Below, piece after piece: positions 143-53,334 of a DNA stretch of 64,000 nt. The first letter of the stretch is position 1. Every line of letters starts with the position of its first letter. Under the pieces are notes generated by a model, which worked only from the letters and a program-made list of their open reading frames with translations, did not search any database and was not told the DNA's origin. The position numbers were made by a program, and so were the translations under genes. The DNA is from an uncultured Chloroflexia bacterium. Lineage in GTDB: Bacteria; Chloroflexota; Dehalococcoidia; UBA2979. The stretch is from the NCBI GenBank assembly GCA_963728205.1, contig CAVSIV010000001.1:1218372-1282371 (forward strand), written 5' to 3'.

Positions 143-1041
143 CGACCGCCACGCGGCCCGTGGGACCGGCCGCCGACCCGCCGCGATCTGCTCCGACCCC
201 GGTCGGCGCTGGCGGTCGCGCTCGTCTCGGTCGCCGGCGTGGCCGCGTTCGGCTGGCCGCTGCTCGTCGCCACCCGGCTCGGCGCTGGCCCAGGGCGGCC
301 ACGGCTCCGCTGGTCTTCGCCTCTGCTCCCCCTTCTGCTCGCCATCGTCCTCGTCGAGGTCTCCGACGGCGGGCTCGACGTCAAGGCCGTCGCCCTGCTC
401 GGGGTGCTCTCGGCCGTCGGTGCCGCCCTGCGTCCGCTCGGGGCCGGCACCGCGGGCCTGGAGACCGTCTTCTTCCTCCTCGTCCTCGCCGGCCGGGTGT
501 TCGGCGCCGGCTTCGGGTTCGTCCTCGGGGCGACCACCCTGTTCGGCTCGGCCCTGCTCACCGGCGGCGTCGGGCCGTGGCTGCCCTACCAGATGCTCGG
601 GGCCGCCTGGGTCGGGCTGGGTGCGGGCCTGCTTCCGCGAGCCCGGGGCAGGCGGAGATCGCGCTGCTCGCGGGCTACGGGGTGGTCGCCGGGCTCGGCT
701 ACGGCGTCGCCCTCGACTTCGCCTTCTGGCCGTTCACGACGGGGGCGGGGACGCAGCTGTCCTTCGTGCCCGGAGGTCCGGCGGCGGCGAACCTGCACCG
801 GTTCGTCGTGTATGCCGCCAGCACCTCGCTCGGCTGGGACATCGGCCGGGCGGTCACGAACGCCGTTCTCATCGTCCTCACCGGCCGCGCCGTTCTCGGA
901 ACGCTGCGCCGTGCCGCCCGCCGGGCAGCCTTCGCCGGGACCGAGCAGTCGGACACGGGCCTGTGCCAAGATCAGCACCACGGCAGCCTGGCCCGGCCGG
1001 GGACCCGTCGGCGCCGAGCCGCGACACGGGAGCGAGCATGA
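139..1041 (+). CDS. ECF transporter S component (frameshifted)
   Basis: Hydrophobic DVKAVALLGVLSAVGAALRP...GGVGPWLPYQM continues in another frame as DFAFWPF...TSLGWDIGRAVTN. Confidence 0.75.
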   Translation: MTTATRPVGPAADPPRSAPTPVGAGGRARLGRRRGRVRLAAARRHPARRWPRAATAPLVFASAPPSARHRPRRGLRRRARRQGRRPARGALGRRCRPASARGRHRGPGDRLLPPRPRRPGVRRRLRVRPRGDHPVRLGPAHRRRRAVAALPDARGRLGRAGCGPASASPGQAEIALLAGYGVVAGLGYGVALDFAFWPFTTGAGTQLSFVPGGPAAANLHRFVVYAASTSLGWDIGRAVTNAVLIVLTGRAVLGTLRRAARRAAFAGTEQSDTGLCQDQHHGSLARPGTRRRRAATRERA

Positions 1042-1577
1042 GCACCACCGACCTGGACCGCCGCGAGGGGTGGCTGAGCCGCGAGGAGCTCGAGGCGGCC
1101 CGGGGGCAGCTGCCCATCCTCTATGTCGACGCCGTCCCCGTCCGCGTCGGCGCCGACGGAGCGATCACCGCCGTGGGGCTGCTGCTGCGGGTGACCGGCC
1201 ACGGGACGATCCACCGCGAGCTCGTCTCCGGCCGGGTCATGTACCACGAACGGGTCCGGGACGCCCTGCTGCGGCACCTCGAGAAGGACCTCGGCCCGGT
1301 CGCCCTCCCCCAGATCCCCCCGACGCCGCAGCCGTTCACCGTGGCCGAGTACTTCCCCACCCCGGGGATCACCCCGTTCCACGACCCGCGCCAGCATGCG
1401 GTGTCCCTCGCCTTCATCGTCCCGGTGGCCGGCGACTGTGCGCCCCAGCAGGACGCCCTTGAGTTCACCTGGTTCGCGCCGACCGACGCGCTGGACCCCG
1501 TGCTGCTCGCCGAGATGACCGGCGGCCACGGGGTACTGCTCCGCCAGGCCCTGGCCCACGCCGGCGTCGCCATCTAG
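1038..1577 (+). CDS. NUDIX-fold hydrolase (DUF4916-like)
   Basis: MSTTDLD..GWLS..LPILYVDAVPVRV..LVSGRVMYHERVRDALLRHLEKDLG..DPRQHAVSLAF. Confidence 0.75.
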   Translation: MSTTDLDRREGWLSREELEAARGQLPILYVDAVPVRVGADGAITAVGLLLRVTGHGTIHRELVSGRVMYHERVRDALLRHLEKDLGPVALPQIPPTPQPFTVAEYFPTPGITPFHDPRQHAVSLAFIVPVAGDCAPQQDALEFTWFAPTDALDPVLLAEMTGGHGVLLRQALAHAGVAI

Positions 1578-1602
1578 ACCAGCCCGAGGAAGGGGCACCA
1601 CG

Positions 1603-2502
1603 GTGGCCACACCCGAGGACCTCGCCGTCCCCGTCGTCGGAGGGACCCTGGCGGTCTGCCGATGGCCCGGCTCGCCCGACGCCCCCACCGTCCTTGCCGC
1701 GCACGGCATCACCGCCAACGGGATGTCCTTCGCCAAGGTCGCCGAGGCGCTCGATGGGCGGGTCACCCTCCTCGCCCCCGACCTGCGCGGCCGGGCCAGG
1801 AGCGCGGGGCTGCCCGGGCCCTACGGTCTCGCCGCCCATGCCGACGACCTCGTCGCCGTTCTCGACCACCTCGGCCTCGACCGAGCCGTCGTTGCCGGGC
1901 ACTCGATGGGCGGGTTCGTCGCGGCGGTCGCCGCCGTCCGGCACCCTGAGCGAGTCGCCGGGGTGCTGCTCATCGACGGCGGCGTGGCTCTGCGGGTGCC
2001 CGAAGGGGCCGACATCGACGCGATCCTTGAGGCCGTCATCGGCCCCGCGATGACGAGGTTGTCGATGACCTTCGAGAGCAGACAGGCCTACCTCGGGTTC
2101 TTCCGGGGACATCCCGCGCTCGCCGAGCACTGGTCGTCCGCCGTGGAGGACTACGTCCTGCGGGACGTCACCGGCGAACCCCCGGCGCTGCGGTCCTCGT
2201 GCGCGATCGACGCCATCCGCCGGGACGCTACGGACACCCTTCTCGACGAGGACACGGTGACCGCGGTGCACCGGATGTCCTGTCCGGCGACCCTCGTCTG
2301 GGCCGGCCACGGCCTCCTCAACGAGCCGCAGGGCCTCTACGACGACGCCCTGCTCGATGGGGTCGGGCTGGACCGGCAGCGCGTCACCGTCGACTCACTC
2401 CCCGACCTCAACCACTACACGATCGTCCTCGCCGACGAGGGCGCCTCGGCGATCGCGCGCCACATCGAGCGGCTCGTCGACCCCACCCTCATCCGCGGCT
2501 GA
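1603..2502 (+). CDS. Alpha/beta fold hydrolase
   Basis: HGIT, DLRGRA, GHSMGG nucleophile elbow, NHYTI catalytic His. Confidence 0.9.
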   Translation: MATPEDLAVPVVGGTLAVCRWPGSPDAPTVLAAHGITANGMSFAKVAEALDGRVTLLAPDLRGRARSAGLPGPYGLAAHADDLVAVLDHLGLDRAVVAGHSMGGFVAAVAAVRHPERVAGVLLIDGGVALRVPEGADIDAILEAVIGPAMTRLSMTFESRQAYLGFFRGHPALAEHWSSAVEDYVLRDVTGEPPALRSSCAIDAIRRDATDTLLDEDTVTAVHRMSCPATLVWAGHGLLNEPQGLYDDALLDGVGLDRQRVTVDSLPDLNHYTIVLADEGASAIARHIERLVDPTLIRG

Positions 2503-2524
2503 CCGCTGGGCGCGTTGCGAGAGC

Positions 2525-3278
2525 TCAGCCGGTGAACTCGTCCCGGGTGCGCGGGCGGTCGTGGTCCTCGCGCGCCCGCGCCTCCTCCGGCGTCGGCGCG
2601 GTGCCGCCCAGCCGGGCCGGGAGGAACCCGAGGTCCTCCCCGGCCAGCGGCGGGTAGGCCGCCTGCTGGGCGTGGAGCTGGTCGACCATCCGCTGCCGGA
2701 GCACTTCGGTGACCTCGTCGAGGTCGTCCCCCCGCTGCGATCTCGATCGGGGACCCGACGGTGATGTGGATGGGGATGCGGATGCGGCCCAGCTGCTTGG
2801 GGTGGTCCTTCGTCCACACCCGCTGCGACCCCCAGATCGTCGTCGGCAGGATGGGCACGGACGCGAGCTTGGCCATCCGGACCGTTCCGGACTTGAACTC
2901 CTTGAGCTCGAAGGACCGCGAGATCGTCGCCTCGGGGAACACCCCGACGATCTCGCCCGCCCGCAGCGCGTCGACGGCCGCCCGGAACGACGCGGCCCCG
3001 GCTTGCCGGTCGACCGGGATGTGCTTCATCCCGCGCATGAGCGGACCGGCATACCGGTGGCCGAAGATGCTCTCCTTGGCCATGAACCGCACGTACCGGC
3101 GCGAGCGACGAGCCACGAGGCCGGCGTAGGTGAAGTCCATGTACCCCGTGTGGTTGATGGCCATGACGGCGCCACCGGTCCGGGGGACGTTCTCCTCGCC
3201 GAGCATGGTGAACTGCAGCCCCTCGGCGAAGAAGAGCATCCTGGCGACCCCGATGACCGGTCGGTAGACGGGCTCCAT
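2525..3278 (-). CDS. Lysophospholipid/1-acyl-glycerol-3-phosphate acyltransferase (frameshift near 2735)
   Basis: NHTGYMD (HxxxxD), FMAKES and VFPEATIS acyltransferase motifs. Confidence 0.85.
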
Positions 3279-3376: not shown

Positions 3377-6016
3377 ATGACCGAACACCTCGCTCCATCC
3401 CGCGCTGCCTCCATCCCGGACCGGCCGTCCCTCGACGGCCTGGAGGAGAAGTGGGGCGCGGTATGGAGCGAGCAGGCGACCTACGCCTTCGACCGCGACG
3501 CGGCCCTGGCCGGCCCGCGGGAGGCCGTGTTCTCGATCGACACCCCGCCGCCGACGGCCAGCGGGTCGCTCCACATGGGGCACGTCTTCTCCTACACGCA
3601 CACGGACTGCATGGCCCGGTACAAGCGGATGGCGGGGTTCAACGTCTTCTACCCCATCGGCTGGGACGACAACGGCCTGCCCACCGAGAAGCGGGTCCAG
3701 AACTTCTACGGAGTCCGCGGCGACGCGACGCTGCACTACGACCCTGCGTTCGTGCCGCCGCACCAGGGCGACGCGACGAGCCTCAAGGCCGCCGACCAGC
3801 TGCCGATCAGCCGCCAGAACTTCATCGAGCTGTGCGACGAGCTCACCGTCAAGGACGAGGAGGCCTTCGAGTCCCTCTTCCGGCGGATGGGCTTCAGCCT
3901 GGACTGGTCGATCTCGTACCGGACGATCGACGACCACTCCCGGGCCACCTCGCAGCAGGCGTTCCTGCGCAACCTCGCCCGCGGCGAGGCGTACCAGGCC
4001 GAGGCTCCGGGACTGTGGGACGTGACTTTCCAGACCGCCGTGGCCCAGGCCGAGCTCGAGGCCCGCGACTACCCCGGCCACTACCACCGGGTCGCCTTCC
4101 ACGGTGCCGACGGCAGCCGGTCCACATCGAGACGACCCGCCCCGAGCTCATCCCGAGCTGCGTGGCCCTCATCGCCCACCCGGACGACGAGCGCTACCAG
4201 CCGCTCTTCGGGACGACGGTGTCGACGCCGCTGTTCGGCGTCGAGGTGCCCGTCGTCGCCCACCCGGCGGCCGAGATGGACAAGGGCGCGGGCATCGCCA
4301 TGTGCTGCACCTTCGGGGACCTCACCGACGTCCTGTGGTGGCGCGAGCTGCAGCTGCCCGACCCGGTCGGTCATCACCCGCGCCGGACGCCTGCAGCAGG
4401 AGGTGCCGGGTGGCTGGCCGGACGGCCGGCGAGGGCCTGTATGCCGCGGAGCTGGCCGGGAAGACCCCGTTCACGCGCCCGCGAGGCGGTCGTCGCGGCC
4501 CTGCGCGAGAGCGGCGACCTCGACGGCGAGCCGACGCCGACCCAGCGCAAGGCGAACTTCTACGAGCGGGGCGAGCAAGCCCCTCGAGATCGTCACCTCG
4601 CGGCAGTGGTACATCCGCAACGGCGGGCGCGAGGTCGACCTCAACGCCACGCTCGTCGGCCGGGGCGAGGAGATCGACTTCCACCCACCGTTCATGCGGT
4701 CCCGCTACGCCAACTGGGTCGCGCGGCCTCAACGGTGACTGGCTCGTCTCGCGGCAGCGCTTCTTCGGGGTCGCGATCCCCGTGTGGTACCCGCTCGACG
4801 CCGACGGTGAGCCGGACTACGACCACCCGATCGTCCCCGCCGAGTCGGACCTCCCCGTCGACCCCGTCGCCGAGGCGCCGCACGGCTACGACGAGTCCCA
4901 GCGCGGCGCCCCGGCGGCTTCATCGGCGACCCTGACGTCCTCGACACGTGGGCGACGTCGTCGCTCAGCCCGCAGATCGCCTCCGGCTGGCGCTCGGGGG
5001 CCGACGCCCAGCCCGACCCGGTCTTCGCCAAGGTCTTCCCGATGGACATGCGCCCGCAGGCGCACGACATCATCCGGACCTGGCTCTTCGCGACGGTGGT
5101 GCGCGCCTTCTTGGAGCACGGCGCCGCACCGTGGACGAACGCGGCGATCAGCGGCTGGATCCTCGACCCCGACCGCAAGAAGATGAGCAAGTCCAAGGGC
5201 AACGTCGTCACCCCCGAGGACGTCGTCAAGGAGCACAGCGCCGACGCGGTGCGCTACTGGGCGGCGAGCGGTCGGCTGGGGACGGACGCGGCATACGACA
5301 TCGGGCAGATGAAGGTGGGCCGGCGGCTGGCCATCAAGATCCTCAACGCGAGCAAGTTCGCCCTGTCCTTCGGTGCGGTCGACGGCGACCTCGCCGCAGC
5401 GGTGACCGAACCGCTCGACAGGTCGCTGCTCGCCGGGCTCGCCGACGTCGTCGACCAGGCGACCGAGGGGTTCGAGGCGTGGGACTACACCCGCAGCCTC
5501 GAGGTGACCGAGACCTACTTCTGGACGTTCTGCGACGACTACCTCGAGCTCGTCAAGGACCGGGCCTATGGCGCCCGCGGCGAGGCCGAGGCTGCCAGCG
5601 CCCGGGCCACCCTGCGCATCGCCCTCGGCGTCCTGCTGCGCCTCCTGGCACCGTTCCTCCCCTACGTCACCGAGGAGGTCTGGTCGTGGTGGCACGACGG
5701 CTCGGTCCACCGGACGACATGGCCGACCCGCACCGAGCTCGACGCCGGCCGCGACGGCGACCCGGAGCTGCTCGTCGCGGTCGGTGAGGCCCTGGCGTCG
5801 ATCCGCAAGGCGAAGTCCGAGGCCAAGCTCGGGATGCGCGCCGAGGTGGCCCGGATCACCGTCATGGGTCCGATGCGAGCGCTCGACGATGTCCGCGCCG
5901 CCGAGGCCGACCTGCGGGCCGCGGGCCGGATCATCGGCCCGGTGACGTACACCGAGGCCGACGCCATCGGCTCGGATGACGTCGAGCTCATCCCGGTCGC
6001 CAAGCCGAGCGCCTGA
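3377..6016 (+). CDS. valS: Valine--tRNA ligase (several apparent frameshifts between 4100 and 4950)
   Basis: [55 protein letters not shown]. Confidence 0.95.
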
Positions 6017-6857: not shown

Positions 6858-8138
6858 CTATGCGGAGCGCTTGCGGGCGGAGCGCTTGCGGCCCTCGTCG
6901 TCGCGTCGCACGATCGTCGGCAGGACGTTCTTGAGGACGACGTCCTCGGTGATGACGACCTTGGTGATCTCGTCGTCGCTGGGGACGTCGAACATGACCG
7001 GGAGGAGCACCTCCTCCATGATCGCCCGCAACCCGCGGGCTCCGGTGCCACGCGCCATCGCCTGCTCGGCGACGGCGACGATGGCCTCCCGATCGAACTC
7101 GAGCTCGACGCCGTCGATGGCGAACATCTTCTGGTACTGCTTGACCAGGGCGTTGCGCGGCTCGGTGAGGATCGTCACGAGGGCGTCGGTGTCGAGGGGG
7201 CTGACCGTCGTGATGACCGGAAGCCGTCCGATGAACTCGGGGATGAGCCCGAACTTCATCAGGTCCTCGGGCATGGCGTCGTGGATCGACTCGGCCAGGT
7301 CCTTGGGCGTGTGCAGCTCGGAACCGAAGCCGAGGCCCTTCTTGCCGTTGCGGGACTCGACGAGCTTCTCGAGTCCGGCGAACGCACCGCCGACGATGAA
7401 CAGGACGTTCGTCGTGTCGATCTGGATGAACTCCTGGTGGGGGTGCTTGCGGCCGCCCTGTGGAGGGACCGAGGCCGTCGTCCCCTCGAGGATCTTCAGC
7501 AGGGCCTGCTGGACACCCTCGCCGGAGACGTCACGGGTGATCGAGGGGTTCTCCGACTTCCGGGCGATCTTGTCGACCTCGTCGATGTAGATGATCCCGG
7601 TCTCGGCCTTCTTGACGTCGTAGTCGGCGGCCTGGATGAGCTTGAGGAGGATGTTCTCGACGTCCTCACCGACATAGCCGGCCTCGGTCAGCGCCGTCGC
7701 GTCGGCGATGGCGAAGGGGACGTTGAGCATCTTGGCCAGCGTCTGCGCGAGATAGGTCTTGCCACAGCCGGTCGGGCCGATGAGCAGGATGTTCGACTTG
7801 GCGATCTCGACGTGGTCGGGGTCCTTCTTCGCGCCGCCCTCCCCGGCCTGGATCCGCTTGTAGTGGTTGTAGACGGCGACCGACAACGCCTTCTTTGCGA
7901 CGTCCTGACCGATGACGTACTGCTCGAGGAAGTCGAAGATCTCACGGGGCTTGGGCAGCTCGTCGAGACCCAGCTCACCGGACTCGGACAGCTCCTCCTC
8001 GATGATCTCGTTGCACAGGTCGATGCACTCGTCGCAGATGTAGACCCCGGGCCCGGCGATGAGCTTCTTGACCTGCTTCTGGGACTTGCCGCAGAACGAG
8101 CACTTGAGCAGGTCGCTGCTCTCACCCATGCGTGCCAC
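6858..8138 (-). CDS. clpX: ATP-dependent Clp protease ATP-binding subunit ClpX
   Basis: [26 protein letters not shown] zinc finger, [32 protein letters not shown] loop. Confidence 0.98.
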
Positions 8139-8242
8139 GTGCCCGTCCTTCCATCGGTCGAGAGGGGACAACGACCCCGACGGTACCCGGCGCAGGTGGG
8201 TACCGTTGCCATTGAACGCCTCGGGTCACGGGCGAGTCGCGC

Positions 8243-9569: not shown

Positions 9570-10312
9570 GCCGGATGCACCGGGGGCCGGTCACACGGCG
9601 GGCAGGTCGGGCGGCGGCCGGGACGGCGGCCGGCCTCGTGGCGGTCCACCTCGGACCGGCCCTGACCTCGCTCGCCCCGCGTCGCCGAGCGGCATTCCTT
9701 CCGTCCCTCTGTGGCCTGAGCCGGACCGGACACCTGGCCCTCACCTTCGACGACGGGCCCGACCCCCGCGGAACTCCGGCGATCCTCGATGCGCTCGACG
9801 TGCATAGCGTCTCGGCGACCTTCTTCGTCCTCGGCGCGTTCGTCGCTCACCATCGGGACATCGTGGCCGAGACGGCCCGGCGGGGGCACGAGGTCGCCGT
9901 CCACGGATGGGACCACGGCAGCACGGTCGGCAAGGCACCGCGCGTCCTCCGGGACGAGCTGGTCCGGACCGCGCAGGTCGTGGCCGAGGTGACCGGCCAG
10001 GCACCGCGGTGGTACCGGCCGCCGTACGGGGTCGAGACCGCATCCTCGCGTCGGGCGGCCCACGCGGCCGGGTTACGGACCGTGCTGTGGACGACGTGGG
10101 GTGTCGACTGGTCACGCCGGGCGACACCGGCCTCGGTCGTTGCGCGGATCCGCCGCGATGCCCACCCCGGCGGGACGGTCCTCCTCCACGACAGCGACCG
10201 CACCTCGGCACCGGGGTCGTGGCGGGTCACCCGGGCGGCGACCGTGGAGCTGCTCGACGGGTGGTCACGGGACGGCATACCCGTCGGCCCGCTCCGCGAC
10301 CACGGCCTCTGA
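9566..10312 (+). CDS. Polysaccharide deacetylase (NodB/CE4)
   Basis: LTFDDGP, ATFFVLG, HEVAVHGWDH, YRPPYG, VLLHD; overlaps the glycosyltransferase stop (alternative ATG at 9575). Confidence 0.9.
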   Translation: MSRMHRGPVTRRAGRAAAGTAAGLVAVHLGPALTSLAPRRRAAFLPSLCGLSRTGHLALTFDDGPDPRGTPAILDALDVHSVSATFFVLGAFVAHHRDIVAETARRGHEVAVHGWDHGSTVGKAPRVLRDELVRTAQVVAEVTGQAPRWYRPPYGVETASSRRAAHAAGLRTVLWTTWGVDWSRRATPASVVARIRRDAHPGGTVLLHDSDRTSAPGSWRVTRAATVELLDGWSRDGIPVGPLRDHGL

Positions 10313-10331: not shown

Positions 10332-10655
10332 TCAGCCGGCGAAGTGGGCCGAGTGCGAGTCGACGACCTCGACGGTGTAGCCGTCGGACATCGCCTCGAT
10401 GAGCACCGCCGCGTGCTGCGCCGACAGCGCCTCGGACAGGCGGACCCCCAGTCGACCGTCCGGCGCCGCGACGAAGCGCAGCCCGTCCGGCGGCAGGTCG
10501 ATCCCGGCGAACGAGGCGATGCTCCGGGCCCGGTCGCGCAGGTGGGCGACGACCACGCCGGAACACATCCCGTCCTCGGGCAGGCCGAGCGCGTCCCCGA
10601 GGTTGGTCGCCGCGGCGAAGACGTCGCTCGACGCGAACCGGTCCACCGGGCTCAC
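10332..10655 (-). CDS. Hypothetical protein (107 aa), translationally coupled to clpP2
   Basis: GTG overlaps the clpP2 TGA (GTGA) after GAGGAG; protein-like composition VSPVDRFASSDVFAAATNLGDALG... Confidence 0.6.
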   Translation of the reverse strand: MSPVDRFASSDVFAAATNLGDALGLPEDGMCSGVVVAHLRDRARSIASFAGIDLPPDGLRFVAAPDGRLGVRLSEALSAQHAAVLIEAMSDGYTVEVVDSHSAHFAG

Positions 10656-11302: not shown

Positions 11303-11339
11303 CGGGCTGGGGTTCCTTCTGGGGTCGTCGGGTCGCTCG

Positions 11340-11966: not shown

Positions 11967-12097
11967 GCTGTCTCGCTCCTTCGATGGCATCGGTGCCGCC
12001 GGCCGGTCCGTCGGCGCGGCATCGGGTGGAGCCGACGCCGTCCGCTGTCAGTGACCCTAACGCGGGGGGTTCCCCGGAAACTCCCCGGCCCCGGGCC

Positions 12098-34859: not shown

Positions 34860-34921
34860 CGGCCCGTCCTCGACGTCACCGGCTTCACGCCGTGTCGGCG
34901 GCACGGCATACGGTGGCGGGG

Positions 34922-45298: not shown

Positions 45299-47132
45299 CT
45301 AGCCCGAGGGTCGGACACCGCCGGCGGCGAGGACGGCGGCGGAGGCGGCGGGAAGGCGCACCACCCGGCGACCCGGCTCGTCGACGAGCGCGGTCGCGTC
45401 GGCGTCCCAGGCGAGGAGGACCTCGACCACGTCCGCTCCCACGGGCACCACCTGGTCGGCCGGACCGAGGTTCGCCGCGACGACGAGGTCGCGATGCTGC
45501 ATGACGACCCACCCGGCCGACTCGTCGACCGCCACGGAGACGTCGGCCAACCGGGTGGCACCGTCGAGGTGGGACCGGCGCAGCCGCATGAGGGCGGCAT
45601 ACCAGCGCAGCATCCGGACATGCGGGCCGTCACCCAGCTCCGACCAGGGCAGCACGCTCCGGTCGCGGGTCGCCGGGTCCTGAGGGTCGGGCACCTCGGC
45701 GGCCGACCAGCCGTGCGAGGCGAACTCCGCGCGCCGCCCCGCGCGCACCGCCTCGGCCAGCTGGGGGTCGGTGAAGCTCGTGAAGAACTGCCACGGCGAT
45801 GAGGCGGCCCACTCCTCACCCATGAAGATCATCGGGGTGCCCGCCCAGAGCACATAGAGCGCGGCCCCGGCCGCCTGCCGCCCGGGGCCGGCCAAGGCGG
45901 AGATCCGGTCGCCGAACGCCCGGTTGCCGACCTGGTCATGGGTCTGCAGATAGCCGAGAAGGCGCCGCGCGTCGAGCGTCGAGCGGTCGACCGGCGCACC
46001 CCACACCGACCCCCGGAAGCTCGACCAGCGCCCGTCGTGGAGGAACCCACCGGTGAGCACCGTGGCGAGGACCCCGAGCGGGCCGAGCCCAGGCGCGGCA
46101 GGGCTGGAGCCCGCGAAGTCGGCGTAGTACCCCTGGTCCTCCCCGGTCAGGACGACGTGCAGCGCATGGTGGACGTCGTCGTCCCACTGCGCCGTCATCC
46201 CCCGCCCCCCGTCGGCCGGTGGCGTCACCATCGACACGTCGTTGAGATCGCTCTCGGCGATCAGCCCGAGCGGTCGGCCGAGCTCGGCCGCCAGGACCGC
46301 CACCGCGTCCGACAGCTCCTCGAGGAGATGCTCGTCGCTCTCGTCGTGGAGCTCGTGGACGGCGTCGAGCCGCAGCGCGTCGACATGGAAGTCGCGCAGC
46401 CAGCGCAGGGCGTTGTCGATGACGAAGGTGCGGACCTCGGAGTTGAACCGGGCGTCGAGGTTGACCGCCGGACCCCACGGCGTCTCGTGCTCGTCGGTGA
46501 AGTACGGCCCGAACCGGGCCAGATAGTTGCCGCTCGGCCCGAGGTGGTTGTGGACGACGTCGAGGCACACGCCCAGCCCACGCCCGTGGCACGCATCGAC
46601 GAACCGCTGGAACGCGGCGGGACCGCCGTAGCCGTCGTGGACGGCATAGAGGTCGACCCCGTCGTAGCCCCAGCCCCCACCGGCCGGGGAACCCGGCCAG
46701 GGGCATGACCTCGACGAGGTCGACGCCGAGGTGGGCAAGGTGGTCGAGCCGCCCGATCGCCGCGTCGAGGGTGCCCTCGGGCGTGAAGGTCCCCACGTGC
46801 AGCTCGTAGACCACCCCGCCGAGAAGACCACGTCCGCCGCGCACCCCGGCCCAGTCGCCGTCGGTCCAGGCGAAGGCGCCGGGATCGAAGGTCCGGCTCG
46901 GCCCGTCCACACCGTGCGGCTGCCAGGCACTACGGGGGTCGGGGATCGGTGGCTCCGCGCCGTCGAGGACGAAGGCGTAGTCGAGGACCGGGTATGCCGC
47001 CTCGTCATCGCCGGCCCACCGCCACCAGCCTCCGCCGTCAGGGGTCATCGGCTCGCGGCGCCGGGGACCTCCCGGCTCGCCGACCTCGACCTCCACCTTG
47101 CGGTGGCTCGGAGCCCAGACGCGGATCGTCAT
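45299..47132 (-). CDS. treZ: Malto-oligosyltrehalose trehalohydrolase (frameshift near 46680)
   Basis: [60 protein letters not shown]. Confidence 0.93.
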
Positions 47133-49637
47133 GTGCGGACCAGGAGGGCCACCGGCAGGTCGCCCAGGACGTCGGACACGAGGATGCCGTCCGCGGCGGC
47201 CCCCGGGCCGGCGACGTCGCGACCGGAGAGAGCGTCGCGCCACGGCCGGTCGGCAGGGCGAGCCGGGCACCCGCCCCAGCCGCCGGACCGGGTCAGCCGC
47301 GAGGCGAACCGGGTGACGACGCGTGACCGCCTGCGGGCCGGACGCGTCTCCGCGGGCGAAGGCGAGGGCGTGCTCGCTCCCGGACGGCACGGCGGCATAC
47401 GTCGCGTGCTCCCCGACGAACCAGCGCGGGGTGCTCCCGCCGCAGCCGCGAGCGCCCGCGAGGTGACGAGAAGCTTCTCGTCGTCGAGATCCGCCGGCGG
47501 CTCGCCACGGTCGAGCCGCCCGAGCCGGGCCACCCGGTCGGCGTAGTCGACGGCGCGGCGGTTGTCCGGGTCGACGAGGGTGAGGGTGACCAGCTCGGTG
47601 CCCTGGTAGACGTCGGGGACGCCGGGCATCGTCAGCTGGACGAGCTTCTGGGCGAGGACCGCGGCCCGGGTGCTCGGGGCGCTGTCCTCGGCCCACCTGG
47701 TCAGGTGTGCCACGACGTCGGGATCGGCGAGTGAGCGCCGTCGCGAAGGACGTCACCGCGTCCTCGTATGCCGCGTCCCCGTCGACCCAGGCCGTGTGCA
47801 CCTTGGCCTCGCGGACGGCCTTGAGGAGGTAGTCGGTGAGCCGCTCGGCCTCGATGGGCCAGGTCCCGACGAGGGTCTGCCAGACGAGGTACTCGGTGGG
47901 CGGGTCGACCTGCTCGCGGTCGATGAGGGGCGCCGAGCCGGCTCGCCTCGAGCACCCACGGGCTCCCAGTCCCGCGCGCGCTCGGCGAGCACGGCACAGA
48001 CGGGCACGGACGTCCTCGGATCGCTTGGTGTCGTGGGTCGACAGGGTCGTCATCGACGACCGGCCAGCTCGCCAACCGACGGGCGCGCGCTCGATGTGGA
48101 ACGCGTCGACACCCATCGACAGCTCCTCGGGGTGGCCGCCGACCTCGTTGGCGCCCGCCAGCCGCCACCAGCGGTAGAAGGCGGTGTCCTCGATGCCCTT
48201 GGCCATGACCGGACCACACGTCTGCTGGAAGCGGACGACGAGTTCGGCGAGCACATCGTCCGACGTGCGGGTCACGCCGCGACAACTGGTCCTCGCCGAG
48301 GAGCGAGCAGCTCGACGTCGGCCAGCGGCTCGTGGTCGGTCGAGTCGAGGCGTCGACCCGGGCGCGAGCCACGGCGTCGCGCAGGACGGCGACCTGCTCG
48401 GGCGGGGCGGGCTCGCCCGGGACGAGGTAGGCGCGGTACCGGTCCATCGAGACGAGCAGCGGCGGCGAGGCAGCGGCGGTAGGCGACGAGGTCCGCGTCC
48501 GGCCGCAGCCGGCCGACGAGCCGGAGGAGCCGGTCGACCTCCGCACTGAGCGACGGTGTCGACGACGTCGCGCTTCGCCGCCGGTGACGACCGCGGCGAG
48601 CTCGGGCGCCGCGGGGTCGTGCCGTTGCCACAGCCCGGTCGAGGACGGCCACCCCGTCGGGTCGGTGAGGACCTGCTGGACGCGCAGCAGCGCGTCGTAG
48701 CCCGTCGTGCCGGCACATCGCCATGCGGTCGGGCAGCTCCTCGCCCGCGCGCAAGGATCTTCTCGGCGACGACCCAGGCGCCGCCGGTGACCTGCGGCGA
48801 GCCGGTCGAGGTAGCCCCCGGGATCGGCCAGCCCGTCGGGATGGTCGATGCGCAACCCGTCGATCGATCCCTCTCGGCAGCAGGTCGATGAGAAGCGCGT
48901 GGGTCGCCTCGAAGACGTGGTGCTTCTCGACGCGGCACGGCGATGAGCGAGGTGACGTCGAAGAACCGGCGGTAGTTCAGCCAGGACTCGCCCGCTGCGC
49001 CAGCCGGCCAACCGGTAGCCCTGGGCCGCCATGAGATCGGCCAGGTCGAGCGCCTCGGTCCCCGGGCGCACCGGGAACTCGTGGTCGTAGTAGCGCAGCA
49101 CGGTCTCGTCATGCCGCACCACCGTCGTCGGACCAGCGGCGAGCTCGCCGTTGGCGAGGACGACGTCGAGCGGGCTGGCCGAGGACCGGCATGAGGATCC
49201 GGCCGTCGTCCACGTCCCAGTCGATGTCGAACCACGGGGCGTAGGGCGAGTCCTGGCCGTACTTGAGCAGGGACCACAGGGCCGCGTTGACATGGGCCGG
49301 GGTCGGCACGGCCATGTGGTTGGGGACGACGTCGACGACGAGGCCGAGGCCCGCCTCGCGAGCGGCCGCCGCCAGTCGGTCGAAGCCCGCGAGACCGCCG
49401 GCCTCGGCGCTGAGCCGGTTGTGGTCGACGACGTCGTAGCCGTGGACCGAGCCCGGAGTCGCCTGGAGGATGGGCGAGAGGTAGAGGTGGCTCACCCCGA
49501 GCGAGGCGAGGTATGCCGGCCTGCTCCGCGGCCGCCCCGAAGCCGAAGCCGCCGTGCACCTGGAGCCGGTAGGTCGCGCGTGGGCACGACCCGCCCGGAC
49601 CGGGGCGATGGGTGGAGCGATCTGCGGGGTCCGGCAT
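47129..49637 (-). CDS. treY: Malto-oligosyltrehalose synthase (many frameshifts)
   Basis: [76 protein letters not shown]. Confidence 0.92.
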
Positions 49638-49639
49638 AC

Positions 49640-51866
49640 GGTCAGCTCCTCGGCGATGAGGTCGTCCGCGTGGTCCGGGCGGTCGGCCGGGGCGACGGTG
49701 TCCTGGGTCGTGGCGAGCACCGGAGGCTCGGGACGCTCGGCCTCGTCGCGCGGATGGCGCAGCACGAGCAGCGATCGGGACTCGACGACGACGTCGGCCC
49801 CCGCCTCGTACCAGGTCGGGTCGAGCAGGTCGGGCGCGGTGTCGACCTCGGTCCTCCACCAGTCGCCCCACTCGGGCGGACGGCAGCACGAACGGCTGGG
49901 TCTCGGCCGCGGCGTTGTAGAGGACGAGGAAGTCGTCGTCGACGATCGCCTGGCCCCGGGCGTCGGGCTCGGGGATCGCCTCACCGTTGAGGAAGACCAT
50001 GATCGGTGCGGGCGGCCGCGTCGGCCCAGTCCTGCTCGGTCATCGACTCGGCCGCCGGGGTGAACCAGTGGATGTCGCCGAGGGAGGACTCGCCCGCCGT
50101 GCTCGGCGCTCCCGGCGAAGAACCGCCGCCGCCGGAAGACCGGGTGGCTGCGCCGGAGCCGGACGAGGCCCCGGGTGAACTCGAGCAGGGCCTTCTCGTC
50201 GGCGCCGAGATCCCAGTCGACCCAGGAGGTCGCGTTGTCCTGGCAGTAGACGTTGTTGTTGCCGCGCTGGGTCCGGCACAGCTCGTCGCCGTGAGCGATC
50301 ATCGGCACGCCCTGGCTGACCATCAGCGTCGTGAGGAAGTTCTTCTGCTGTCGCAACCGGAGGTCGTTGATCTCCCTGTCGTCGGTCGGGCCCTCGGCCC
50401 CGCAGTTCCACGACCGGTTGTAGCTCTCGCCGTCGCGGCCGTCCTCTCCGTTGGCCTCGTTGTGCTTGTCGTTGTAGGACACGAGGTCGCGCAGCGTGAA
50501 GCCGTCGTGGGCGGTGATGAAGTTGATCGAGGCGATGCGGCTTGCGGCCGCTGTGCTCGTAGAGGTCGGAGGAGCCGGTGATGCCGGGAGGCGAACTCGC
50601 CGAGGCGTGGACGGCTCGCCCCGCCAGAAGTCCCGCACCGTGTCGCGGTACTTGCCGTTCCACTCCGTCCACAGCGGCGGGAAGTTGCCCGACCTGGTAG
50701 CCGCCGTCGCCGACATCCCACGGCTCGGCGATGAGCTTGACCTGGGAGATCACGGGGTCCTGCTGGATGAGGTCGAAGAACGCCGACAGCTTGTCGACCT
50801 CGTGGAACTGGCGGGCCAGGGTGGCGGCGAGGTCGAACCGGAACCCGTCGACGTGCATCTCGGTCACCCAGTAGCGCAGGCTGTCCATGATGAGCTGCAG
50901 CACGTGCGGATTGCGCATGAGCAGGCTGTTCCCGGTGCCCGTCGTGTCGTAGTAGTGCTCCTTGTGGTCGTCGACGAGCCGGTAGTAGGACGGCGTTGTC
51001 GATGCCCCGGAAGCAGATGCGTCGGGCCCAGCTCGTTGCCCTCGGCCGTGTGGTTGTAGACGACGTCGAGGATGACCTCGATGTCGGCCTCGTGGAGGGC
51101 CTTGACCATCGCCTTGAACTCGGTGACCTGCTGGCCACGCTGGCCGCGGGCGTAGCCGTTGTGCGGGGCGAGGAAGCCGATCGTGTTGTAGCCCCAGTAG
51201 TTGCGACAGGCCCTTGGCCTGCAGCGAGGTGTCCTGGACGAACTGGTGGACCGGCATGAGCTCGATGGCCGTGACGCCGAGCTCGGTGAGGTGGTCGATG
51301 ATCGGCCGGGTGGCCGATGGCCTCGTAGGTGCCGCGGATCTCCTCGCGGGATGTCCGGGTGGGTCATCGTCAGGCCCTTGACGTGGGCCTCGTAGATGAC
51401 GCTCTCGTGGTACCCGTGCCGAGGCGGGCGGTCGTGGCCCCAGTCGAAGTAGGGGCTGGTGACGACGCCGAGCAGCGTCTTACCGAGGCTGTCGTCGGTG
51501 TTGACGCTTCGTCGGGTCCTCGAAGTCGTAGGCGAAGAGCGCCGGGTCGTTCTCGATCTGGCCCTCGATGGCCTTGGCGTATGGGTCGAGGAGCAGCTTG
51601 TTCGGCGTCGCAGCGGTGCCCGTTGCTCGGGCTCGTAGGGCCCGTGGACCCGGTAGCCGTAGCGCTGCCCGGGCGAAGACCCGGGGACGTAGCCGTGCCA
51701 GACGAAGCCGTCGACCTCGGGGAGGTCGAGCGCGCGTCTCGGCGCCGTCGTCGTCGATGAGGCACAGCTCGACCCGGTCGGCGACCTCGGAGAACAGCGC
51801 GAAGTTGACCCCGCTGCCGTCATACGTCGCCCCGAGGGGGTATGCCGTTCCAGGCCAGATCTCCAT
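49640..51866 (-). CDS. glgX: Glycogen debranching enzyme (many frameshifts; 3' end approximate)
   Basis: [71 protein letters not shown]. Confidence 0.93.
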
Positions 51867-52059
51867 GGCCGCCTTCCGCTGCGCCGGGGGTCTCCGGCCT
51901 CCAGTGTGGTCCAGGCACGCCGATCTGGCGTGGGTGGGGACCACGCCGTCCCCACCGTGGCGCACGTCTCGGACGGCGCCGGTGCGCCGGCCCTGGGCTG
52001 GTCTAGGGTCGGCACCACCTGAACGTCCAACCTATCGAAGAACGGAGAGGATCCGGACA

Positions 52060-52815
52060 GTGAGCACTCAGCGAGTTGCCATCGTGACGGGTGCGGCCCG
52101 TGGGATCGGTGCGGCGACCGCCGCCCGGCTGGCCGCCGACGGAGACGCCGTGGCCGTCTTCGACCTCGACGAGAGCGCCTGCGAGGCGGTCGCCGGGACG
52201 ATCCGTGCGGCCGGCGGCCGGGCCATCGGCGTCGGGGTCGACGTCTCGGACGCCGACCAGGTCGCCGCCGGCGTGGCCCGGGTCGCCGAGGAGCTCGGTC
52301 CACCGGTCATCCTCGTCAACAACGCGGGCATCATCCGGGACAACCTCATCTTCAAGATGACCGAGGAGGACTGGGACGCCGTGATGAACGTCCATCTCAA
52401 GGGGGCGTTCCTCATGACCCGGGCCTGCCAGAGCTTCATGACCGCGGAGAAGTACGGGCGGATCGTCAACCTCTCCTCCTCCTCGGCGCAGGGCAACCGG
52501 GGCCAGGTCAACTACTCGGCCGCCAAGGCGGGCATGCAGGGGTTCACGAAGACCCTCGCCATCGAGCTCGGCAAGTTCGGGGTGACCGCGAACGCCGTCG
52601 CGCCCGGCTTCATCCAGACCGACATGACCCGCGCGACGGCGGAGCGGCTCGGGGTGCCCTTCGAGGACTTCATCGAGTTCTCGGCGAAGCAGATCCCCGT
52701 CCAGCGGGTCGGCCAGCCGGCCGACATCGCCGCGACGATCAGCTTCCTGTGCTCCGAGGAGGCGGGGTTCGTGTCCGGCCAGGTCATCTACGTCGCCGGC
52801 GGCCCGCTCGACTGA
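52060..52815 (+). CDS. fabG: 3-oxoacyl-ACP reductase (SDR)
   Basis: [39 protein letters not shown]. Confidence 0.85.
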
Positions 52816-52850
52816 CCCGGCTCGCTGGACCGCCCGCCGACGCGCGCGCG

Positions 52851-53334
52851 CTACGGGCGGGGCGCAGCGCGAGCATGGGCAGGTCCTCGACGAGACGCCG
52901 ACGGCCCGAGTCGGAGCCGTCGTAGCGCCACCCGAGCAGCCAGGACAGGACCGGACGGAAGAGCGGCATAGCGAACCGGTGCGGCGTTCGTAGTCGACGA
53001 ACACCGCCAGGGCCTCATCGCGGTCGAGGACCCGGTATGCCGCACGCCGGGGCCCGGAGCCGAAGTCAACGTACGTCGGCCCTCCGGCGGTGACATTGCG
53101 GAACCAGTCCGCACCCGGACCGAAGCCGGAGACGACGACGGCCTCACCGGTGCCCGTGTCGTAGCGGACGACCTCGACGACGACGTGGAACTCACGCCCG
53201 GACCTGCGGCCGGTGTGGGTGATCCGGACGAACCGGTGGCCGAGCAGCCGGCCGGCGCCGACGGCATACAGCCGGTTCGGGAGGAGGAATGTCGCGTGCA
53301 GCCACGCCGGGAGGTGCTCCGCGCTGCTGGCCAT
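52851..53334 (-). CDS. Deazaflavin-dependent nitroreductase family protein (frameshifted; end approximate)
   Basis: LLGHRF..ITHTGRRSG, VVEVV, SGFG..ADWFRN, YERR. Confidence 0.8.

What the first reader, a model, noticed from the sequence alone, without database searches (positions are those of the whole stretch)
810..53269. Highly iterated non-palindromic octamer GTATGCCG/CGGCATAC imposed across coding frames
Seen: 39 exact copies by hand count in positions 1-53300, about one per 1.4 kb. GTATGCCG starts at 810, 4439, 15536, 17455, 18955, 20808, 23525, 25840, 29352, 30332, 31956, 33971, 34367, 38072, 43363, 44642, 46992, 47766, 49511, 51840 and 53035. CGGCATAC starts at 3047, 5289, 10273, 12407, 14920, 21098, 21407, 24191, 26355, 28053, 32374, 33114, 34904, 39994, 45595, 47393, 49632 and 53262. 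Assuming about 72% GC, a zero-order model predicts about 2 copies. The 21:18 split shows no strand bias. The motif occurs in different frames and uses codons this genome otherwise avoids: TAT-GCC (pepN L-Y-A), GCA-TAC (valS A-A-Y), GGC-ATA (deacetylase G-I) and GTA-TGC (regulator V-C). It also overlaps three probable start codons (GT-ATG-CCG). I found none in clpX, clpP1, clpP2 or tig. Known parallels are cyanobacterial HIP1 and the Neisseria/Pasteurellaceae DNA uptake sequences. Inference: a DNA-level signal, such as an uptake sequence, a methyltransferase/repair-driven motif or a nucleoid-protein site, that I cannot name for Actinobacteria.
Basis: partly seen in the sequence, partly recalled or inferred. 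Interest (0 to 1): 0.85.

Follow-up and report, generated by a model that had tools for sequence, protein, structure and literature searches.

The report
Hyperabundant strand-aware octamer in Dermatophilaceae
An eight-letter DNA word is written thousands of times across the genomes of one family of actinobacteria, much as DNA uptake sequences are in Neisseria and Haemophilus, which hints at an unrecognised system of DNA exchange in these soil and wastewater bacteria.

Summary
All 39 listed copies are real and there is a 40th, against about 1.4 expected. The excess survives a synonymous-codon null: 25 copies in called CDS against 2.8. The assembly is a Chloroflexota MAG, and the window lies in one of two actinobacterial (Dermatophilaceae) blocks joined to contig ends. 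In that family GTATGCCG is genome-wide: 79 of 151 genomes carry at least 900 copies and 53 carry fewer than 100. Complete isolate genomes are among the carriers. Sister lineages use GGATGCCG or GAATGCCG, and Janibacter uses C-GAAGGGGG. The word shows no replichore polarity, avoids clpX and clpP, is conserved at orthologous sites, and forms convergent pairs at the base of terminator-like hairpins. A new finding is that same-strand copies exclude each other over about 0.8–1.5 kb, while opposite-strand copies are independent. My best reading (0.45) is a DUS/USS-like word spread by biased DNA exchange and read strand-specifically. RecC, Vsr, ComEC, TadE and FtsK-family genes do not track it. I found no publication on it. 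This scan met the same word before on another genome (e1-5205920).

The parts
810..817 (+). GTATGCCG copy; antisense to called ORF, read as A-A-Y (GCG-GCA-TAC)
3047..3054 (-). copy; antisense, P-A-Y
4439..4446 (+). copy; sense, V-C-R
5289..5296 (-). copy in valS-like ORF (tRNA-synt_1/Anticodon_1); antisense, A-A-Y
10273..10280 (-). copy; no ORF called
12407..12414 (-). copy; sense, A-Y-A-G
14920..14927 (-). copy 97 nt upstream of the aligned start of tig, in frame GGT-ATG-CCG (possible start codon)
15536..15543 (+). copy; antisense, T-A-Y
17455..17462 (+). copy; no ORF called
18955..18962 (+). copy; no ORF called
20808..20815 (+). copy 16 nt upstream of a tRNA gene (20831-20904)
21098..21105 (-). 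copy; sense, P-Y-A-A
21407..21414 (-). copy; sense, A-Y-A-A
23525..23532 (+). copy; antisense, A-A-Y
24191..24198 (-). copy in pepN-like ORF; antisense, R-H-T
25840..25847 (+). copy in pepN-like ORF; sense, L-Y-A-A
26355..26362 (-). copy in pepN-like ORF; antisense, T-A-Y
28053..28060 (-). copy in alpha-amylase-family ORF; antisense, G-I
29352..29359 (+). copy in alpha-amylase-family ORF; sense, S-Y-A-A
30332..30339 (+). copy; antisense, G-I
31956..31963 (+). copy; sense, R-Y-A-A
32374..32381 (-). copy; sense, G-Y-A-A
33114..33121 (-). copy; sense, L-Y-A-V
33971..33978 (+). copy; sense, G-Y-A-A
34367..34374 (+). copy; sense, R-Y-A-G
34904..34911 (-). copy; no ORF called
38072..38079 (+). copy; no ORF called
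39994..40001 (-). copy; sense, V-C-R
43363..43370 (+). copy; sense, P-Y-A-A
44642..44649 (+). copy; sense, V-C-R
45595..45602 (-). copy; sense, W-Y-A-A
46992..46999 (+). copy; antisense, R-H-T
47393..47400 (-). copy; sense, R-M-P
47766..47773 (+). copy; no ORF called
49511..49518 (+). copy; antisense, P-A-Y
49632..49639 (-). copy; sense, V-C-R
51840..51847 (+). copy in short-chain dehydrogenase ORF; sense, G-Y-A-V
53035..53042 (+). copy; no ORF called
53262..53269 (-). copy; antisense, T-A-Y
56713..56720 (-).
6858..8225 (-). clpX, free of the word (a second, 61%-identical clpX lies elsewhere on the contig)
10652..12047 (-). two clpP genes, free of the word
13471..14823 (-). tig (trigger factor), free of the word; used to find relatives
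56721..64000 (.). word-free, lower-GC (0.64) tail of the contig

Best explanation
GTATGCCG is the Dermatophilaceae counterpart of a DNA uptake sequence. It is a short self-recognition word that accumulates by molecular drive. DNA carrying the word is preferentially passed on during DNA exchange between relatives, most likely natural transformation, so point mutations that create the word spread wherever they do little harm to proteins.

Shown here: hyperabundance, spread by point substitution, conservation of sites, dialects that follow phylogeny, avoidance of constrained genes, recruitment into hairpin stems, absence of polarity, and exclusion between copies on the same strand.

Inferred:
- The selective agent is biased uptake or integration of DNA.
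- The word is read on one strand or directionally. One copy then 'covers' about 1 kb of its own strand, so a second same-strand copy nearby gains nothing, while a copy on the other strand is an independent unit.
- A recognition protein whose specificity drifts between lineages explains the G(T/G/A)ATGCCG dialects and the unrelated Janibacter word.

The word looks local in this assembly because the window is Dermatophilaceae DNA joined to a Chloroflexota contig.
For: - Abundance: 40 against 1.4 in the window. Whole-genome counts against the reversed-word control are 2652 vs 116 (complete Knoellia genome), 2737 vs 135, 5422 vs 159 and 1376 vs 97. 79 of 151 family genomes carry at least 900 copies.
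- DNA-level: synonymous-codon shuffles give 2.8 against 25 observed in the window, and 7.5 against 102 in Knoellia. TAT:TAC in context is 12:1 and 52:5, against 0:6 in word-free relatives.
- Made by point changes and then kept: orthologous positions without the word carry CTACGCCG, GTACGCCG or GTGTGCCG. In 16 of 18 genome pairs the motif columns are more conserved than the flanks. Within Knoellia 9/10, 12/13 and 9/10 aligned sites are kept at about 85% identity.
- Perfect copies dominate: 812, with one-off variants in the tens.
- Dialects: GGATGCCG or GAATGCCG are high in 11 of 151 genomes, and 3 of those hold both words. Janibacter/Marihabitans use C-GAAGGGGG with the same layout. Word classes need 13 changes on the Tig tree against 37 for shuffled labels.
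- No polarity: 267:262 over 40 samples around the chromosome; 87:90 and 139:132 in samples of opposite gene orientation.
- Avoids constrained genes: clpX 0, clpP 0.06 and tig 0.19 per kb, against 0.88 elsewhere.
- Convergent pairs under 60 bp are 5.4x expected and form the base of hairpins whose inner stems differ by species, many just 3' of tig.
- The DUS/USS literature reports the same set of traits. I read passages only: Frye 2013, PMC3630211; Findlay & Redfield 2009, PMC2817400; Bakkali 2007, PMC1939737.
- Import machinery is present: ComEC in 151 of 151 genomes and TadE pseudopilins in 5 of 5.
Against: - No member of this family is known to me to be naturally transformable (recalled; none turned up in the listings).
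- No sequence-specific uptake is known in any Gram-positive or actinobacterial organism (recalled).
- ComEC and TadE are just as present in word-free genomes, so they do not explain presence or absence. I found no gene that tracks the word.
- In H. influenzae, uptake is reported to be independent of the orientation of the uptake sequence (Bakkali 2007 passages). The strictly same-strand exclusion seen here is not predicted by the classical surface-receptor model and fits a single-strand reader such as a Chi-recognising nuclease at least as well.
- Every line of support is a parallel of pattern. No uptake, binding or recombination was measured.
Confidence: 0.45

Rival explanations
1. A Chi-like signal. 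The word is read on one DNA strand by an end-processing helicase-nuclease (AdnAB/AddAB type). This switches the enzyme from degradation to RecA loading. Incoming or broken self DNA that carries the word is therefore rescued and recombined, which also creates a drive.
For: - It is a non-palindromic 8-mer like E. coli Chi (recalled).
- The same-strand-only exclusion over 0.8-1.5 kb, with full independence of the opposite strand, is what a single-strand, direction-dependent reader predicts.
- The word differs between related genera.
- Janibacter, which uses a different, G-rich word, is the only one of 5 genomes with RecC.
Against: - There is no replichore polarity: 87:90 and 139:132 in oppositely oriented regions. 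Known Chi sites are co-oriented with replication (recalled).
- RecC is absent from 4 of 5 genomes, including the complete Knoellia genome.
- The 20-70-fold excess far exceeds that of known Chi (recalled).
- Terminator-type inverted pairs and single-letter dialects are DUS/USS traits, not Chi traits.
- AdnAB/AddAB presence was not tested here.
Confidence: 0.2
2. A loading or recognition site for an FtsK/SpoIIIE/TraB-type double-strand DNA translocase used in actinomycete-style conjugation. Chromosomal segments that carry the word are pumped preferentially into recipients.
For: - KOPS, SRS and plasmid TRS words are also oriented, non-palindromic 8-mers (recalled).
- Orientation dependence fits the same-strand exclusion.
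- Janibacter's GAAGGGGG resembles the G-rich KOPS/SRS words (the resemblance is recalled).
- All 5 genomes carry several FtsK-family genes, including small ones of 468-681 aa.
Against: - FtsK-family gene content does not separate word-bearing from word-free genomes.
- There is no polarity toward a terminus, so this is not FtsK/KOPS itself.
- Known TRS are clustered in plasmid clt loci and are not hyperabundant in chromosomes (recalled).
- Many family members are cocci or rods, not mycelial (recalled).
Confidence: 0.1
3. A binding site of a sequence-specific nucleoid-associated or chromosome-organising protein, kept by selection for chromosome structure.
For: - The distribution is genome-wide and fairly even: 0.15-0.95 per kb in 40 samples.
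- Spacing is more even than random in 2 of 3 data sets (CV 0.72 and 0.81).
- A structural role has been proposed for quasi-periodic HIP1 (passages of PMC13756078).
Against: - Selection on each of thousands of sites would be extremely weak (population-genetic argument, recalled from the USS literature).
- A dsDNA-binding architectural protein does not obviously explain why only same-strand copies exclude each other.
- It also does not explain why hairpin stems are preferred.
- No candidate protein was identified.
Confidence: 0.1
4. A by-product of a DNA methyltransferase with very-short-patch-type repair, or of another sequence-biased repair process, that converts near-cognate sites into the word.
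For: - HIP1 is recognised by methylases (abstract passage of PMC13756078).
- The common synonymous precursors GTACGCCG (0.6x) and GTATGCGG (0.4x) are depleted in word-rich DNA.
Against: - Vsr is present in both word-free genomes tested and absent from the GG-dialect genome.
- VSP repair acts at one position, whereas orthologous ancestors differ from the word at several positions.
- No single neighbouring word could supply the copies.
- Restriction-modification specificities are usually strain-variable (recalled), whereas the word is stable across genera.
Confidence: 0.04
5. An artefact: adapter contamination, or systematic basecalling error at a modified site.
For: - The octamer is part of the Illumina P7 adapter, which is why 5,232 papers contain it.
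- The host assembly is a chimeric MAG.
Against: - Copies share no flanks beyond position +9.
- They lie in frame in conserved genes and are conserved at orthologous positions across independently sequenced genomes, including complete isolate chromosomes.
- No one-letter neighbour is depleted enough to be the source.
Confidence: 0.01

Closest known systems
DNA uptake sequences of Neisseriaceae (DUS and its eight dialects; receptor ComP)
   Same: - Thousands of copies per genome, about 1 per 0.7-3 kb.
- Equal numbers on both strands.
- Dialects that differ by single letters around a shared core and follow phylogeny.
- Family members without any word, and genomes holding two dialects at once.
- Inverted pairs at terminator-like hairpins.
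- Copies inside genes in tolerated frames.
(Frye 2013 passages.)
   Different: - The host is an actinobacterium with no known competence.
- The word is 8 bp (9 with the T/C at +9), against 10-12 bp for DUS.
- No ComP-type receptor was sought or found.
- Same-strand exclusion over about 1 kb has not, to my knowledge, been described for DUS, and I could not test it on Neisseria genomes here.
- Function is untested.
Uptake signal sequences of Pasteurellaceae (Hin-type and Apl-type USS)
   Same: [quoted passage not shown]
- Rarer in highly conserved genes, with strong reading-frame bias and enrichment of the encoded peptides, explained by molecular drive (Findlay & Redfield 2009 passages).
   Different: - Uptake in H. 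influenzae is reported as independent of USS orientation, whereas here the two orientations behave as separate units.
- I saw no AT-rich flanking segments here.
- The genome is 70% GC.
Chi sites (RecBCD/AddAB recombination hotspots)
   Same: - Non-palindromic and of 8-mer size.
- Read on one strand and direction-dependent (recalled; Bianco & Kowalczykowski 1997 appears in the reference list seen).
- Species-specific words.
   Different: - No co-orientation with replication.
- RecC is absent from 4 of 5 genomes.
- The excess is an order of magnitude larger.
- Hairpin pairs are present.
HIP1 (GCGATCGC) of cyanobacteria
   Same: A hyperabundant octamer, conserved in coding and non-coding DNA and quasi-periodic. 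It has recently been proposed as a broad uptake sequence (passages of PMC13756078).
   Different: HIP1 is a palindrome recognised by methylases, and one word is shared across a phylum. Here the word is asymmetric, strand-aware and lineage-specific, with dialects.
KOPS / SRS / plasmid TRS (FtsK, SpoIIIE and TraB recognition words)
   Same: Oriented, non-palindromic 8-mers read by a DNA motor (recalled). Janibacter's GAAGGGGG looks similar.
   Different: KOPS and SRS are polarised toward the terminus, and TRS are clustered in clt loci (recalled). Here there is no polarity and the spread is genome-wide and even.

Membership tests
DUS/USS-type DNA uptake sequence | Short word present in hundreds to thousands of copies, far above compositional expectation | tested here: met
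   For example 2652 vs 116 (control) in a complete genome, and 812 vs 5 copies in word-rich vs word-free relatives.
DUS/USS-type DNA uptake sequence | [quoted passage not shown] | tested here: met
   (267:262; 87:90 and 139:132 in regions of opposite gene orientation). The replichore was inferred from gene orientation, not from a mapped origin.
DUS/USS-type DNA uptake sequence | Copies inside genes in a few tolerated frames; rarer in highly conserved genes | tested here: met
   (Y-A and A-Y frames dominate; clxP-region densities: clpX 0 and clpP 0.06 vs 0.88 per kb elsewhere).
DUS/USS-type DNA uptake sequence | Inverted pairs forming terminator-like stem-loops | tested here: met
   (convergent pairs under 60 bp are 5.4x expected; loops peak at 18-19 and 24-25 nt; many lie just 3' of tig). 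Termination itself was not tested.
DUS/USS-type DNA uptake sequence | Lineage-specific dialects congruent with phylogeny | tested here: met
   (GT, GG, GA and Janibacter words; 13 changes vs 37 for shuffled labels). The tree is single-gene FastTree only.
DUS/USS-type DNA uptake sequence | Competent cells preferentially take up or are transformed by DNA carrying the word | not testable with these tools
   Needs uptake or transformation assays in isolates.
DUS/USS-type DNA uptake sequence | Host has DNA-import machinery and a sequence-specific receptor | tested here: inconclusive
   ComEC in 151 of 151 genomes and TadE in 5 of 5, but both are equally present in word-free genomes. No receptor candidate was found, and ComP or ComN homologues were not searched.
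Chi (RecBCD/AddAB hotspot) | Cognate RecBCD-type enzyme present | tested here: not met
   RecC (PF04257) found in 1 of 5 genomes, and absent from the complete Knoellia genome. AddAB/AdnAB were not tested.
Chi (RecBCD/AddAB hotspot) | Co-orientation with the direction of replication | tested here: not met
Chi (RecBCD/AddAB hotspot) | Strand-specific, direction-dependent action | tested here: inconclusive
   Same-strand-only exclusion is compatible with this, but it is a distribution pattern, not an activity.
KOPS/SRS (FtsK/SpoIIIE guide words) | Polarity switching at origin and terminus | tested here: not met
HIP1-type highly iterated palindrome | Palindromic word that is a methyltransferase site | tested here: not met
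   The word is not a palindrome (sequence itself). Methylation was not testable.
VSP-repair-driven word | Presence tracks a Vsr endonuclease, and the excess comes from one T-to-C position | tested here: not met
   Vsr found in 4 of 5 genomes, including both word-free ones, and absent from the GG-dialect genome. Ancestral states differ from the word at several positions.

The most novel reading that the evidence does not exclude
Dermatophilaceae possess the first sequence-specific DNA-exchange system known in Gram-positive bacteria. Its recognition factor reads an 8-9-nt word on a single DNA strand during import or integration. It has diversified into at least four specificities: GTATGCCG, GGATGCCG, GAATGCCG and C-GAAGGGGG. 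It leaves a quantitative footprint, same-strand exclusion over about 1 kb, that measures the length of DNA 'covered' by one recognition event. This would imply frequent natural transformation in soil and wastewater actinobacteria, including the main phosphorus-removing lineage Ca. Phosphoribacter.
Probability: 0.35. Interest if true: 0.9.

Novelty: new variant of a known kind. Interest (0 to 1): 0.8.

Why it matters
Uptake-sequence-like words are textbook cases in only two proteobacterial families, with HIP1 of cyanobacteria still debated. A third, independent case would matter in several ways.

- **Generality:** a case in high-GC Gram-positive bacteria, with its own dialects, would show that the phenomenon is general.
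- **A testable prediction:** it predicts unsuspected natural transformation, or another biased DNA exchange, in Knoellia, Terrabacter, Pedococcus, Janibacter and the wastewater phosphorus accumulators.
- **A route to the recognition protein:** the dialects, which vary at position 2, give a handle for finding it by covariation.
- **A new observable:** the same-strand exclusion rule could discriminate surface dsDNA receptors from single-strand readers, and it can be checked at once in Neisseria, Haemophilus and E. coli.
- **A practical marker:** word density (about 0.7 per kb against 0.016) is a sharp marker for detecting chimeric contigs and foreign islands, as in this MAG.

Tried and rejected
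1. My first reading after one search was a local cluster of binding sites marking a chromosomal macrodomain. I dropped it when the block proved compositionally foreign, carried a duplicate clpX and matched Dermatophilaceae.
2. One-letter conversion or basecalling artefact: no neighbouring word is depleted enough to be the source.
3. Adapter contamination: the literature hits are the Illumina P7 adapter, but the copies share no flanks.
4. RecBCD-type Chi: RecC found in 1 of 5 genomes, and no polarity.
5. Vsr/VSP repair: no correlation.
6. ComEC as a correlate: it looked promising, because it is fragmented in word-free Phycicoccus HDW14. However, it is intact in the other word-free genome and present in 151 of 151. 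TadE and FtsK-family content do not discriminate either.
7. Junction check with public reads: one run with a 0.06 share of words. laid only contigs 90-95% alike, and all listed pieces lie on the actinobacterial side. Nothing bridges the junction, so there is no verdict on misassembly versus real insertion.
8. The literature search for spacing or orientation rules of USS, DUS and Chi returned nothing relevant.
9. Pfam on ORFs of the window's word-free tail gave no hits or partial hits. Rfam found only two tRNAs.
10. The first polarity test assumed the Knoellia record starts at the origin, which it does not. I replaced it with spaced sampling.
11. Technical failures: wrong frame; time limit; killed. 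These were redone as (FastTree instead of IQ-TREE).

Full report
**1. The observation**

That makes 40 copies. The expectation from 100 dinucleotide-preserving shuffles is 1.37 (largest 5).

The excess is not a codon effect. I shuffled synonymous codons within the 30 ORFs that my GC3-based caller accepts. The shuffles give 2.83 +/- 1.63 copies (max 8 in 200 shuffles) against 25 observed. In the context G_TAY_GCCG the rare codon TAT beats TAC 12:1.

The copies share no flanks except that position +9 is almost never A. All six reading frames are used. Tyr-Ala (13 copies) and, on the other strand, Ala-Tyr (8 copies) are the commonest.

**2. The word is not a property of the assembly the window sits in**

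The whole assembly (4.13 Mb, 6 contigs) has only 135 copies. Of these, 53 lie in C1:1,206,981-1,275,084 and 17 in the last 85 kb of C6. That is 75.7 per 100 kb against 1.64 elsewhere.

Those two contig ends are the strongest compositional outliers of the assembly: ranks 1, 2, 3 and 6 of 114 tiles, with CGCGCG five-fold depleted. A 6-mer likelihood classifier finds exactly two actinobacterium-like blocks, C1 from about 1,206,250 to the end and C6 from about 1,765,500 to the end. At each boundary the score flips within 300 bp.

The window's clpX is a second copy, 61% identical to the one at C1:909,299. It is 60-66% identical to the single clpX of each of the assembly's 12 taxonomic relatives searched. 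It is 82-95% identical (median 89%) to clpX in 50 Dermatophilaceae loci. Trigger factor is 84% identical to that of an uncultured Actinomycetota MAG and 75-79% to Knoellia.

Earlier notes of this scan call the assembly Chloroflexota. Its listed contamination is 5.6%. So the window is Dermatophilaceae DNA joined to a Chloroflexota contig. This is most likely a chimeric join, although public reads could not settle it.

**3. In Dermatophilaceae the word is genome-wide**

Counts per roughly 21-kb tig locus are 13-18 in Knoellia, 9-13 in Terrabacter, 10-13 in Pedococcus and 31-35 in the Ca. Phosphoribacter group. They are 0 in Janibacter and in several Phycicoccus and Nostocoides genomes.

Whole-genome counts, against the reversed-word control:

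| Genome | Word | Control |
|---|---|---|
| Knoellia locipacati (complete) | 2652 | 116 |
| MAG nearest the window | 2737 | 135 |
| Ca. Phosphoribacter baldrii | 5422 | 159 |
| Pedococcus | 1376 | 97 |
| Phycicoccus sp. HDW14 | 25 | 12 |

In 151 family genomes (at least 90% complete), my tally's table is 79 genomes with at least 900 copies, 19 with 100-899 and 53 below 100.

Because complete isolate genomes carry the word, it is not a MAG or basecalling artefact. The only 'literature' for the letters is the Illumina P7 adapter.

**4. Dialects**

The commonest over-represented 8-mer differs by lineage. It is GGATGCCG in one clade (for example 23 against 3.1 expected in L011) and GAATGCCG in L033 (18 against 0.9). 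In Janibacter and Marihabitans it is C-GAAGGGGG (13-26 against about 1.5).

These other words also use both strands equally, alternate strands and form convergent close pairs.

Across the 151 genomes, G(A/G)ATGCCG is high (2,318-4,238 copies) in 11. Three of these (G036, G129, G163) also hold 1,025-1,410 copies of the GT word.

On a FastTree of trigger factor (81 rows), the classes need 13 changes against 37.1 for shuffled labels. The Janibacter word is one clade (support 99). Eight of the nine GG rows sit in one 10-row clade. The window is sister to L001. This is a single-gene quick tree and should be read cautiously.

**5. How copies arise and persist**

Where one genome has the word and its relative does not, the orthologous letters are ordinary high-GC variants such as CTACGCCG, GTACGCCG or GTGTGCCG. 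Copies are therefore made by point substitutions, often more than one.

Once made, they are kept. In 16 of 18 genome pairs the eight motif columns are more conserved than the +/-30-bp flanks. Within Knoellia 9/10, 12/13 and 9/10 aligned sites are shared at about 85% nucleotide identity, where neutral retention of an 8-mer would be about 27%. The window and L001 share only 1 of 6 aligned sites, so there is turnover at greater distance.

Perfect copies dominate: 812 in 1.125 Mb of word-rich DNA, against 5 in 304 kb of word-free relatives. Rare one-off variants are mildly raised (CTATGCCG 33 against 0). The common synonymous precursors are depleted (GTACGCCG 0.6x, GTATGCGG 0.4x).

The word avoids constrained genes. 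Over 29 loci the densities are clpX 0 per kb (0 in 31 kb), clpP 0.06 and tig 0.19, against 0.88 elsewhere.

**6. Strand behaviour**

There is no polarity. Over 40 samples (800 kb) spread around the complete Knoellia chromosome the count is 267:262. In the 12 samples with more than 60% of coding on + it is 87:90. In the 21 samples with less than 40% it is 139:132. The replichore was inferred from gene orientation, which switches near 1.5 and 3.5 Mb.

Density is fairly even, 0.15-0.95 per kb. The two sparsest samples have almost no high-GC3 ORFs, so they are probably foreign or atypical DNA.

Neighbouring copies prefer opposite strands: 513 of 738 adjacent pairs (69.5%, binomial p about 1e-26). 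In the window it is 23 of 39. Pair-correlation analysis shows two components (31 sequences, 752 sites).

- **Convergent close pairs.** GTATGCCG...CGGCATAC pairs under 60 bp apart are 5.4x expected. They form the base of longer hairpins whose inner stems differ between species. Loops peak at 18-19 and 24-25 nt. Many lie immediately 3' of tig, so they look like intrinsic terminators.
- **Same-strand exclusion.** Observed/expected for same-strand pairs is 0.17, 0.38, 0.41, 0.43 and 0.55 up to 1 kb, 0.73 at 1-1.5 kb and 1.0 beyond. Opposite-strand pairs stay at about 1 at all distances above 60 bp, which serves as an internal control.

The rule replicates in independent data. In Ca. Phosphoribacter (607 sites in 400 kb) same-strand observed/expected is 0.15-0.72 up to 800 bp and 0.95-1.08 beyond, with 403 of 606 strand switches. 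In 20 new Knoellia samples it is 0.24-0.48 between 60 bp and 1 kb, with 167 of 241 switches. In the 0-60 bp bin of those new samples it was 0.96, on 5 pairs.

The exclusion range shrinks as density rises. So the two orientations act as independent units, and one copy makes a second same-strand copy nearby superfluous. This points to recognition on one strand or in one direction.

**7. Candidate genes**

I tested five genomes: Knoellia (GT), two word-free genomes, Janibacter, and a GG-dialect MAG.

| Gene family | Result |
|---|---|
| RecC | Only in Janibacter |
| Vsr | In 4 of 5, including both word-free genomes; absent from the GG genome |
| TadE pseudopilins | In all 5 |
| FtsK family | Several in all 5, without a distinguishing pattern |
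| ComEC | In all 5, but fragmented (145 + 488 aa) in word-free Phycicoccus HDW14 |

Across the family, ComEC is present in 151 of 151 genomes and nearly always as one full-length match. Import machinery therefore exists, but nothing tested explains who has the word.

**8. Comparison with what is known**

I read passages, not whole papers.

- **Frye et al. 2013 (PMC3630211)** describe eight DUS dialects of 2,245-5,918 copies. They differ by single letters around a core and are congruent with phylogeny. Some family members lack DUS, one genome holds two dialects, and inverted pairs sit at terminators.
- **Findlay & Redfield 2009 (PMC2817400)** report fewer uptake sequences in highly conserved genes, strong frame bias and a molecular-drive model.
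- **A 2026 paper (PMC13756078)** proposes HIP1 as a broad uptake sequence.

Every distributional trait of DUS/USS that I could test is met here. The differences are the host phylum, the strand-specific exclusion and the complete lack of functional data.

Searches for a prior report found none. One search used uptake sequence / Actinobacteria / natural transformation / overrepresented. One search used the family and genus names with octamer or uptake sequence. These searches cover only the open-access library. An earlier agent of this scan noted the same word at about 45x in another actinobacterial genome and also compared it to DUS (e1-5205920). That is not independent evidence.

**9. Verdict**

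The feature is real, strong and DNA-level. The best-supported mechanism is DUS/USS-like molecular drive through biased DNA exchange, read strand-specifically (0.45).

The rivals are a Chi-like single-strand signal (0.2), a conjugative translocase word (0.1), a nucleoid-protein site (0.1), methylation or repair (0.04) and an artefact (0.01).

I class it as a new variant of a known kind.

Noticed in passing
G000 C1:~1,206,250-1,282,371 (contains the whole window) and C6:~1,765,500-1,872,144: The assembly is chimeric. Two actinobacterium-like blocks sit at the 3' ends of the two largest contigs of a Chloroflexota MAG. They share no sequence with each other (blastn).
   Followed up: yes
G000 C6:1,765,500-1,872,144: The second foreign block has far fewer GT copies (17 in 107 kb) and 35 GGATGCCG. 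It may come from a different Dermatophilaceae donor than the window.
   Followed up: partly
L055, L056, L062, L064, L066-L069 (Janibacter, Marihabitans): An unrelated hyperabundant word, C-GAAGGGGG, shows the same balanced strands and convergent close pairs. It resembles the G-rich KOPS/SRS words but is not polar within the loci. Janibacter is also the only one of 5 genomes with RecC.
   Followed up: partly
G036, G129, G163 (family survey): Three genomes carry both the GT word (1,025-1,410 copies) and the G(A/G) word (2,318-3,659 copies). They may be transitional, or have dual specificity.
   Followed up: no
G023:C1:894,550-895,259 (Phycicoccus sp. HDW14): ComEC is split into open frames of 145 and 488 aa in this word-free complete genome, against 915-1020 aa in the other four genomes.
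   Followed up: partly
window 56,721-64,000: The contig tail is word-free, has lower GC (0.64), and its ORFs give no Pfam hits or only partial ones. It may be an island, or poorly polished sequence at the contig end.
   Followed up: partly
window 20,640-20,904: Two divergently oriented tRNA genes. A copy of the word lies 16 nt upstream of the + strand one.
   Followed up: no
L005, L007, L012, L023, L024, L035, L036, L059: The palindrome AATCGATT recurs in several loci (count of 4 over both strands, which is two sites, against about 0 expected). These include word-free and GG-dialect loci, near tig/clpP. It may be a conserved operator.
   Followed up: no
L045: A count of 32 for the 8-mer CCCCCCCC/GGGGGGGG (overlapping matches, both strands) in one 21-kb locus of a long-read MAG. 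This is probably homopolymer-rich sequence or an assembly artefact.
   Followed up: no
L101:442-574 (G000 C1:1,201,442-1,201,574): A repeat of at least 100 letters, flagged by read laying, in the Chloroflexota part just before the junction.
   Followed up: no
literature: The octamer is contained in the Illumina P7 adapter. Genomes with thousands of genuine copies could in principle confuse very permissive adapter-matching.
   Followed up: no
G021 samples at 1,020,001-1,040,000 and 2,280,001-2,300,000: The two Knoellia samples with the fewest copies (4 and 3) also have almost no high-GC3 ORFs. They are likely islands or rRNA/atypical regions that lack the word.
   Followed up: no
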